DNA from: a virus
Lineage: Duplodnaviria; Heunggongvirae; Uroviricota; Caudoviricetes
IMG/VR virus record: IMGVR_UViG_2663763000_000006
Length of the DNA stretch: 15,195 nucleotides
Strand: one strand, 5' to 3'
The position numbers and the translations under genes were made by a program. The notes under the pieces were generated by a model that worked only from the letters and a program-made list of their open reading frames with translations, had not been told where the DNA came from and did not search any database. Of the stretch, positions 14,922 to 14,948 are shown piece by piece (positions within the stretch are counted from its first letter, which is position 1; every line of letters starts with the position of its first letter).

Positions 14922-14948
14922 TTGTGCAAATTTGTGCACTTTTGTGCA
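14922..14948. repeat. Three direct repeats of TTGTGCA at exact 10-bp phasing
   Basis: TTGTGCA at 14922-14928, 14932-14938 and 14942-14948, seen directly. Confidence 0.8.

What the first reader, a model, noticed from the sequence alone, without database searches (positions are those of the whole stretch)
14922..14948. Three TTGTGCA direct repeats phased one helical turn apart, between the cos-proximal region and the right-end cargo gene
Exact 10-bp spacing of a 7-bp motif puts all copies on one face of the helix, typical of cooperative protein-binding arrays. Given the location, candidates are terminase small-subunit recognition repeats (analogous to lambda cosB R sites) or an operator controlling the adjacent cargo gene. 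The third repeat overlaps the terminator of the incoming minus-strand gene.
Basis: seen in the sequence. Interest (0 to 1): 0.45.

Follow-up and report, generated by a model that had tools for sequence, protein, structure and literature searches.

The report
Phased repeats in P2-type cos site
The three TTGTGCA repeats are real and are the outer edge of the DNA-packaging signal (cos) of a P2-family prophage; the same array is kept at the same distance from the cut site in P2, 186, satellite P4 and dozens of related prophages, although papers usually quote only a 55-bp cos core.

Summary
Confirmed: TTGTGCA sits at 14922, 14932 and 14942, exactly 10 bp apart. A phased 7-mer triple of this kind arose in 1 of 2000 shuffles.

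The window is a P88-like (Peduoviridae) E. coli prophage. The portal gene ends at 14497 and the P2-type cohesive-end sequence lies at about 14807-14825.

A fourth copy (14850-14856) follows a hairpin and T-run next to cos, 72 bp before the array.

This layout recurs in P2, 186, satellite P4 and about 40 diverged prophage arms. RTGCR falls at +24, +96 and +106 from cos, and a third distal site at +116 to +119. The spacer between them diverges; P2 and P4 are 18% identical there.

In 78 P88-like loci the array is intact, and about 20 unrelated cargo junctions begin directly after repeat 3.

It is therefore best read as a cosB-like recognition array of the cos right arm, not a cargo operator: the adjacent gene is convergent and variable.

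Which protein reads it is untested. The gpM model shows no helix-turn-helix, whereas the large terminase gpP has an N-terminal one.

Interest is moderate. It is a member of a known kind whose distal array appears in no paper I could read.

The parts
14787..14806 (+). Short conserved left flank of cos (contains ACCCCC). Cross-genus conservation falls to zero further left.
   Evidence: Information-content profiles of the 110 bp left of the cos core, in three cos-core groups.
14807..14825 (+). Putative 19-nt cohesive-end sequence. Its reverse complement is GGTGACGGGGGAACAGCCC; P2 has GGCGAGGCGGGGAAAGCAC.
   Evidence: Ungapped alignment to the annotated cosL/cosR of P2: 13 of 19 positions by my own count from those sequences, not a tool result. 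The same flanking layout is seen in P2, P4 and 186. The ends were not determined experimentally for this phage.
14827..14845 (+). GC-rich hairpin (GCGCGCAGAAAAAGCGCGT) next to cos, followed by a T-run. P2 and P4 have a hairpin at the same place (CGCCCGCTTCACGGGGCGG).
   Evidence: Terminator-like scan; P2/P4 sequences.
14850..14856 (+). Proximal copy of TTGTGCA. GTGCA starts 27 bp after the cos core and 72 bp before distal copy 1.
   Evidence: RTGCR is at this offset in 39 of 39 diverged arms, although the filter required a T-run plus RTGC somewhere within 60 nt.
14857..14914 (+). Spacer. It is poorly conserved between genera and here contains ACGGATCC twice, 11 bp apart (14860-14867 and 14871-14878, two GATC sites).
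   Evidence: P2/P4 identity in the equivalent stretch is 0.18.
14915..14921 (+). A7 tract directly 5' of the array. TCAAAAAAA is conserved in G-type arms.
   Evidence: Profiles.
14922..14928 (+). Distal repeat 1, TTGTGCA.
   Evidence: RTGCR at this offset in 77% of 39 arms that are <85% identical, against a background of 2.3% per position. Unchanged in 75 of the 76 P88-like loci matched by the scoring pattern; 2 more intact arrays differ only in the linker.
14932..14938 (+). Distal repeat 2, TTGTGCA. With the next C it forms the palindrome GTGCAC.
   Evidence: RTGCR at this offset in 72% of 39 arms. Unchanged in 75 of 76 scored loci.
14942..14948 (+). Distal repeat 3, TTGTGCA. It is the last conserved base block of the phage backbone.
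   Evidence: It reads TTGTGCA, TCGTGCA or TTGTGCG in 76 of 76 scored loci. About 20 unrelated sequences start right after it. Megablast homology to P88-like phages ends at query position 449, which is window 14948.
14954..14974 (-). Intrinsic terminator of the convergent cargo gene. It is not part of cos and marks the start of the variable cargo.
   Evidence: The cargo ORF (phrog_1714) occupies 15009-15195+ on the minus strand, by mapping from L002.

Best explanation
The three phased TTGTGCA copies, together with the proximal copy at 14850, are the recognition part of the cos packaging signal of this P2-family prophage. They lie on the arm that becomes the right end of the packaged chromosome.

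Shown here:
- The array sits at a fixed distance from a P2-type cohesive-end sequence.
- Across the family the core RTGCR is kept at +24, +96 and +106, with a third distal site at +116 to +119, while the spacer diverges.
- Satellite P4 carries the same layout.
- Variable cargo begins at the first base after repeat 3.

Inferred, not shown:
- Terminase (gpM plus gpP) binds these same-face sites cooperatively.
- That binding positions the nuclease on the cohesive-end sequence 27-97 bp away.
- Terminase stays on this arm to start packaging, as lambda terminase does at cosB.

Which subunit reads the motif is open.
For: - Position: the portal gene is followed by a cos-like core, a hairpin, a T-run and then GTGCA.
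- Same geometry in reference phages: P2, P4 and 186 have sites at +24, +96, +106 and +118/119, and the 72-bp proximal-to-distal distance matches the window.
- Satellite evidence: P2 and P4 are 93% identical at +0..29, 18% at +29..94 and 71% at +94..111. P4 therefore shares a second island exactly at the repeats. In 73 of 74 P4-like arms the block is at +96.
- Breadth: in 39 arms <85% identical, from Enterobacterales and Burkholderiales, RTGCR is at +96 in 77%, at +106 in 72%, at +116 in 31% and at +119 in 15%. Background is 2.3% per position. Conservation profiles peak at the repeats and fall to zero after repeat 3.
- Backbone edge: 78 P88-like loci keep the array next to about 20 unrelated junctions.
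- Candidate readers: the window encodes both terminase subunits (PF05944; PF06056 + PF03237), and gpP has an HTH.
- Literature: longer flanks around the 55-bp core were noted to accompany better cosmid transduction (PMC9594776).
Against: - There is no binding, footprint or deletion datum for this array in anything I could read.
- The one paper that dissected P2/P4 cos (Ziermann and Calendar 1990) is not held, so I cannot say whether its minimal cos includes all three repeats.
- The third site is loosely placed (+116 to +119) and often degenerate (TTGCA, GTGCG).
- A few arms lack a clear triple.
- No P4-like satellite with the GTGCA type was found.
- This prophage's own gpP is frameshifted, so the signal may not be used by this copy.
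Confidence: 0.75

Rival explanations
1. The array is an architectural element of cos rather than a direct terminase site. It would be phased A/T tracts plus TGCA steps giving intrinsic curvature, or sites for a host bending protein such as IHF, that fold the arm so terminase bound elsewhere can act.
For: The unit here is AAATTTGTGC, preceded by an A7 tract, and the TCAAAAAAA flank is conserved in G-type arms. Lambda cosB needs an IHF bend between R sites (established knowledge).
Against: The element conserved across the family is the pentamer RTGCR, not the A/T tracts. The P2 and P4 arrays (CTTAATGCAATCTCATGCACCCTTGAATGCA) have no phased A-tracts. By eye there is no good match to the IHF consensus WATCAANNNNTTR; no scan was run.
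Confidence: 0.12
2. The array acts at the end of packaging rather than at initiation. It would be a cosQ-like termination or end-holding signal for the last-packaged end.
For: It lies on the opposite side of the cut from the terminase and portal genes, whereas lambda cosB lies on the terminase-gene side. The direction of packaging in P2-type phages could not be established from anything I could read.
Against: A multi-copy phased array with a proximal copy next to the cut site resembles initiation sites (lambda cosB, SPP1 pacL/pacR) more than the single short cosQ. P2-type phages package from monomeric circles (PMC2231350), where one cos serves both steps.
Confidence: 0.1
3. The array is an operator or promoter element for the neighbouring cargo gene, or a parC-like centromere for the ParM/ParR-type genes of P88-like phages.
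For: Phased direct repeats are typical of ParR-parC and of cooperative regulators. P88-like phages encode StbA/ParM and StbB nearby. In P2 the old-tin transcript starts 26-28 bp past repeat 3, so cargo promoters can abut the array.
Against: - The adjacent gene is convergent and terminates before the array.
- The array is invariant next to about 20 unrelated cargos.
- P2 and P4 have no annotated parMR yet keep the array.
- Two Klebsiella-type relatives that keep it show no partition gene annotated between portal and replication gene.
- There is no TTGTGCA cluster upstream of parM.
Confidence: 0.03

Closest known systems
cos site of P2, 186 and P4, the '55-bp core' (Ziermann and Calendar 1990, cited in PMC9122126, PMC2231350 and PMC3931495)
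   Same: It has the same family of cohesive-end sequence, the same hairpin, T-run and RTGCA right after it, and the same distal triple at +96, +106 and +116-119.
   Different: The motif is GTGCA rather than ATGCA. The third spacing is 10 bp instead of 12-13. The cos core is a 2-nt-shorter variant (CCCCCGTCACC). The distal array lies outside the 55 bp that papers quote as the shared cos.
Lambda cosB (R3-I1-R2-R1, bound by the small subunit gpNu1 with IHF)
   Same: Several short repeats lie within about 120 bp on one side of the nicking site, so it is presumably a terminase anchoring site.
   Different: All copies here are direct repeats with a 5-7-bp core and a 10-bp phase. They lie on the side away from the terminase genes. 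No clear IHF site is present. The small subunit (PF05944) is unrelated to gpNu1 and has no predicted winged helix.
pac sites with repeated boxes (P1 pac hexamers; SPP1 pacL/pacR)
   Same: Clusters of short repeats flank the cleavage point.
   Different: Those are headful (pac) systems. P1 repeats contain GATC and depend on Dam methylation. Here the repeats lack GATC, although GATC sites occur in the spacer.
ParR-parC iterons and P2 Cox or 186 Apl boxes (phased direct repeats bound cooperatively)
   Same: The geometry is the same: direct repeats one helical turn apart.
   Different: Location and co-occurrence do not fit. The array tracks cos, not parMR or the immunity/att region, and it is present in elements without those proteins.

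Membership tests
P2-family (Peduoviridae) cos site, right arm | Lies next to a P2-type GC-rich cohesive-end sequence, downstream of the portal gene Q | tested here: met
   Portal at 13451-14497. The core CCCCCGTCACC ends at 14825. By my own ungapped count it matches 13 of 19 positions of P2 cos.
P2-family (Peduoviridae) cos site, right arm | Hairpin, T-run and RTGCA immediately after the cohesive end (the right part of the 55-bp core) | tested here: met
   14827-14856 in the window; the same elements occur in P2, P4 and 186.
P2-family (Peduoviridae) cos site, right arm | Distal RTGCR triple at a fixed offset (72 bp from the proximal copy), shared with reference members and with satellite P4 | tested here: met
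P2-family (Peduoviridae) cos site, right arm | The sequence is required for packaging or transduction by the cognate terminase | not testable with these tools
   This needs deletion or point mutants in cos plasmids. The only published dissection is not held.
Lambda-type cosB | Repeats bound by an N-terminal winged helix-turn-helix of the small terminase subunit | tested here: inconclusive
   The gpM model (pLDDT 82) is an all-alpha repeat protein with a disordered basic tail. Its best PDB matches are weak and TPR-like (E about 0.02), with no HTH. An HTH is found instead at the N-terminus of gpP. Binding itself was not tested.
Lambda-type cosB | IHF site between the repeats | tested here: inconclusive
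   By eye, TCAAAAAAATTG is only a partial match to WATCAANNNNTTR. The spacer is not conserved.
Operator or promoter of the adjacent cargo gene | Lies upstream of, and co-varies with, the regulated gene | tested here: not met
   The gene is convergent with its own terminator. The array is invariant beside about 20 different junctions.
parC centromere of a ParMR (type II) partition system | Iteron cluster next to parM/parR, co-occurring with them | tested here: not met
   parM/stbB lie more than 1.5 kb away with no TTGTGCA cluster upstream. P2 and P4 have no annotated parMR yet keep the array, and two Klebsiella-type relatives that keep it show no partition gene in the stretch read.

The most novel reading that the evidence does not exclude
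The RTGCR sites may be read not by the small subunit but by the homeodomain-like HTH (Pfam Terminase_5) fused to the N-terminus of the large terminase gpP. On that reading P2-type phages would put sequence recognition on the motor/nuclease subunit itself, and the four to five same-face sites would serve as an assembly platform for several gpP copies.

The evidence is only suggestive:
- The gpM model lacks a DNA-binding fold.
- gpP residues 1-45 form a three-helix HTH.
- Two positions of its recognition helix (N33, Y36) are invariant in 38 GTGCA-type loci. They are replaced in 13 ATGCA-type loci by A/S/P at position 33 and H/Q at position 36.
- That split coincides with deep clades, so it is not an independent correlation.
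Probability: 0.3. Interest if true: 0.65.

Novelty: new member of a known kind. Interest (0 to 1): 0.42.

Why it matters
P2-type packaging recognition is poorly defined. Neither terminase subunit has a solved structure, and papers quote a 55-bp cos core.

A second conserved island about 100 bp away, shared by helper phages and the satellite P4, gives a concrete set of bases to mutate. The experiments would be EMSA or footprinting, and tests of helper/satellite packaging specificity.

It also explains why the defence-gene hotspot next to cos starts exactly where it does. In practice it warns that P2/P4 cosmids and prophage-end predictions should include about 125 bp of the right arm.

Tried and rejected
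- Chance: rejected (1 of 2000 shuffles).
- Coding sequence: mechanical ORFs overlap the array (14600-14986 +, 14777-14953 -), and two records annotate mutually inconsistent hypothetical ORFs here. Conservation comes in 5-7-bp islands at 10-bp period and vanishes after repeat 3, so I treat them as spurious.
- RNA: no Rfam family. The best match is SprD at 17.7 bits against a gathering score of 100.
- DnaA boxes: repeats 1 and 3 are 8/9 matches to TGTGNAWAA by eye. The family-wide conserved part is RTGCA, the ATGCA-type arms have no CACA/TGTG, and the positions that would be free in a DnaA box are the invariant ones.
- Ogr/Delta late-activator site (TGT-N12-ACA): no match by eye.
- Cox/Apl boxes: position and distribution do not fit.
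- parC and cargo operator: see the rival explanations.
- GTGCA-type P4-like satellites: of 120 IMG/VR matches to the G-type cos pattern, 108 lie beside a portal gene. Of the other 12, all but one had less than 300 bp upstream, and none lies next to P4-like genes. This predicted mimicry test gave nothing.
- Literature: five full-text searches and about ten papers gave only the '55-bp core' statement. Ziermann and Calendar 1990 and the Christie and Calendar review are not held.
- Direction of packaging could not be established.
- A single-sequence model of gpP 1-140 was good only for residues 1-45, so no fold search was run on it.

Full report
**Observation**

The window reads ...gttcaaaaaaaTTGTGCAaatTTGTGCActtTTGTGCAaacaaaaagcgcccctgaggcgcttt... 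TTGTGCA starts at 14922, 14932 and 14942. Tandem Repeats Finder gives period 10, 3.3 copies, at 14918-14950.

It is the only 7-mer triple at period 9-12 in the window. Such a triple arose in 1 of 2000 dinucleotide-preserving shuffles. A fourth exact copy lies at 14850-14856. The three other copies in the window are isolated and fit chance (7 found, 3.98 expected).

**Context**

The window is a P2-family prophage of the P88 type (Xuanwuvirus, Peduoviridae). One E. coli chromosome matches 14500-15195 at 100%.

- gpM (small terminase, PF05944) is at 8792-9592 on the minus strand.
- gpP (large terminase) runs from 11705.
- The portal gene gpQ is at 13451-14497.
- Downstream of Q, the reverse complement of 14807-14825 (GGTGACGGGGGAACAGCCC) aligns with the annotated cohesive end of P2, GGCGAGGCGGGGAAAGCAC. 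I count 13 of 19 matching positions.
- Next come a GC hairpin (14827-14845), a T-run and the proximal TTGTGCA.

The array therefore lies 97-123 bp inside what would be the right end of the packaged chromosome.

**Close relatives**

I fetched 80 IMG/VR loci whose portal is 99-100% identical to the window's. Of these, 78 have a complete arm and all 78 keep the array.

- Repeats 1 and 2 are unchanged in 75 of the 76 arms matched by the scoring pattern. The other 2 arms are intact arrays that differ only in the linker.
- Repeat 3 reads TTGTGCA, TCGTGCA or TTGTGCG.
- The sequence after the last A of repeat 3 falls into about 20 unrelated classes.
- Megablast homology to P88-like phages ends at query position 449, which is window 14948.

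Repeat 3 is thus the last base block of the conserved backbone, and the variable cargo starts at the next base.

**Reference phages and the satellite**

I read P2, P4 and 186 in the same orientation. Each has TTTTAATGCA at +24 from the cos core and three ATGCA at +96, +106 and +118/119. The proximal-to-distal distance is 72 bp, as in the window.

| Stretch from the cos core | P2 vs P4 identity |
|---|---|
| +0..29 | 93% |
| +29..94 | 18% |
| +94..111 | 71% |

P4 is reported to share only cos with its helpers (PMC9122126). It nevertheless shares a second island exactly at the repeats. In 73 of 74 P4-like arms the block CATGCA-N4-CATGCA-N7-GATGCA sits at +96, including relatives whose Psu is only 62-64% identical. 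One arm has a 6-bp duplication in the spacer.

**Wider family**

A scan of one genome per species with a portal alignment gave 80 loci. Anchoring on the cos core left 39 arms that are <85% identical, once the window, three phage-collection arms, P2, P4 and 186 were added.

| Offset from the cos core | Arms with RTGCR |
|---|---|
| +24 | 100% |
| +96 | 77% |
| +106 | 72% |
| +116 | 31% |
| +119 | 15% |
| background, per position | 2.3% |

The +24 figure is partly circular, because the filter asked for a T-run plus RTGC somewhere within 60 nt.

Three cos-core types occur. CCCCCGTCACC and CCCCCGCCTCGCC mostly carry GTGCA. CCCCGCCACGCC, together with P2 and P4, carries ATGCA or ATGCG. Information profiles peak at the proximal copy and at the array and drop to zero directly after repeat 3. 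On the left side, conservation stops about 38 bp from the core end. The conserved cos is therefore asymmetric, roughly 14787-14948.

**Interpretation**

These facts fit a packaging-signal element:

- a fixed distance to the cut site;
- survival of the short cores while the spacer diverges;
- presence in a satellite that depends on the helper's terminase;
- the coincidence with the edge of the cargo hotspot.

The most economical mechanism is cooperative terminase binding to same-face sites, which positions the nuclease on the cohesive-end sequence, as at lambda cosB. That step is inferred; nothing here shows binding.

The papers I could read speak only of a 55-bp cos core. One notes that longer flanks went with better cosmid transduction. 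From memory, Ziermann and Calendar 1990 reported that about 125 bp, mostly to the right of the cut, is needed. I could not read that paper, so I do not know whether the repeats were described there.

**Which protein reads the array**

- An AlphaFold model of gpM (pLDDT 82) is an all-alpha repeat protein with a disordered basic tail. It gives only weak TPR-like PDB matches and shows no HTH.
- gpP has an N-terminal Terminase_5 / homeodomain-like HTH (E about 1e-26).
- In a single-sequence model, gpP residues 1-45 form three helices with pLDDT 73-89.
- Two positions of helix 3 (N33, Y36) are invariant in 38 GTGCA-type loci. In 13 ATGCA-type loci they are replaced by A/S/P at position 33 and H/Q at position 36.

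The two groups are deep clades and gpM also has discriminating columns, so this is a lead and not a test. Some arms mix A and G at different sites, so the first base may simply be a purine.

**Rivals**

- Cargo operator: rejected. The neighbouring gene (phrog_1714, 15009 onward, minus strand) is convergent and ends in a terminator at 14974-14954, and the array is indifferent to cargo identity.
- parC centromere: P88-like phages do encode StbA/ParM and StbB. No TTGTGCA cluster lies upstream of parM. P2 and P4 have no annotated parMR and keep the array, and two Klebsiella-type relatives that keep it show no partition gene in the stretch read.
- Intrinsic bend or host factor: possible as a contribution. 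The conserved element is the pentamer, not the A/T tracts.
- Termination signal rather than initiation signal: this cannot be excluded from sequence.

**Verdict**

The operator reading is rejected and the reader protein is open.

The element is a member of the P2-family cos site (GTGCA type, regular 10-bp third spacing). The distal array, as a family-wide feature, is absent from the literature I could access. Interest is moderate.

Noticed in passing
window 11705-13451, near 13018: The large terminase gene gpP lacks 5 bp relative to P88 (one GACGC of a tandem GACGCGACGC). This shifts the frame inside the nuclease domain, giving ORFs at 11705-13042 and 12834-13451. It is either a defective prophage or a sequencing error.
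   Followed up: partly
L002 4976-6251 (PhiR44_2, right of the cargo; outside the window): P88-like phages carry an actin-type partition pair: StbA/ParM (PF06406 + PF21523) and StbB (PF10784), plus a ClpX-type zinc-finger protein. 90 of 2383 E. coli matches to this region lie on plasmids, which hints at plasmid-like maintenance of some relatives.
   Followed up: partly
window 15009-15195 (minus strand) and L002 3510-4583: The cargo next to the array is a phrog_1714 protein of unknown function, followed by a Mom-like DNA-modification gene (phrog_1384). There are no PADLOC hits. The 3' part of the first gene is about 96-98% identical in lambdoid and other unrelated phages, so the module is mobile.
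   Followed up: partly
window 14860-14879; offset +35 in related arms: ACGGATCC occurs twice, 11 bp apart, giving two Dam GATC sites in the cos spacer. A GATC at the same offset is kept in 10 of 39 diverged arms, and 186-like arms have GATC sites next to the distal repeats. A possible methylation input to cos was not examined.
   Followed up: no
window 14552-14790: About 240 bp between the portal terminator (14519-14551) and cos is conserved among P88-like phages but not across genera. Different records annotate it with inconsistent small ORFs. It contains the inverted repeat cacgctcagcgtga (about 14727-14740). Its function is unknown.
   Followed up: no
L030 (IMG/VR locus): An IS1 end (GGTAATGACTCCAACTTATTGATAG...) is joined directly to the cos core. 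This removes the whole right arm, so that prophage should be unpackageable.
   Followed up: no
L114 (assembly labelled Vagococcus sp. WN89Y): The contig carries a portal 100% identical to the window's and the same cos arm. This is most likely enterobacterial contamination of that assembly.
   Followed up: no
L006 (P2 right end) and L250 (186 right end): In P2 the annotated old-tin transcript starts 26-28 bp past repeat 3, so a -35 hexamer would overlap TTGAATGCA. In 186 the annotated t95b terminator lies 37 bp past repeat 3. Cargo modules are packed tightly against the array in both orientations.
   Followed up: partly
L246 (P4-like satellite): A 6-bp tandem duplication (GGCACA) in the spacer makes the proximal-to-distal distance 78 bp instead of 72. 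It is the only exception among 74 satellite arms.
   Followed up: no
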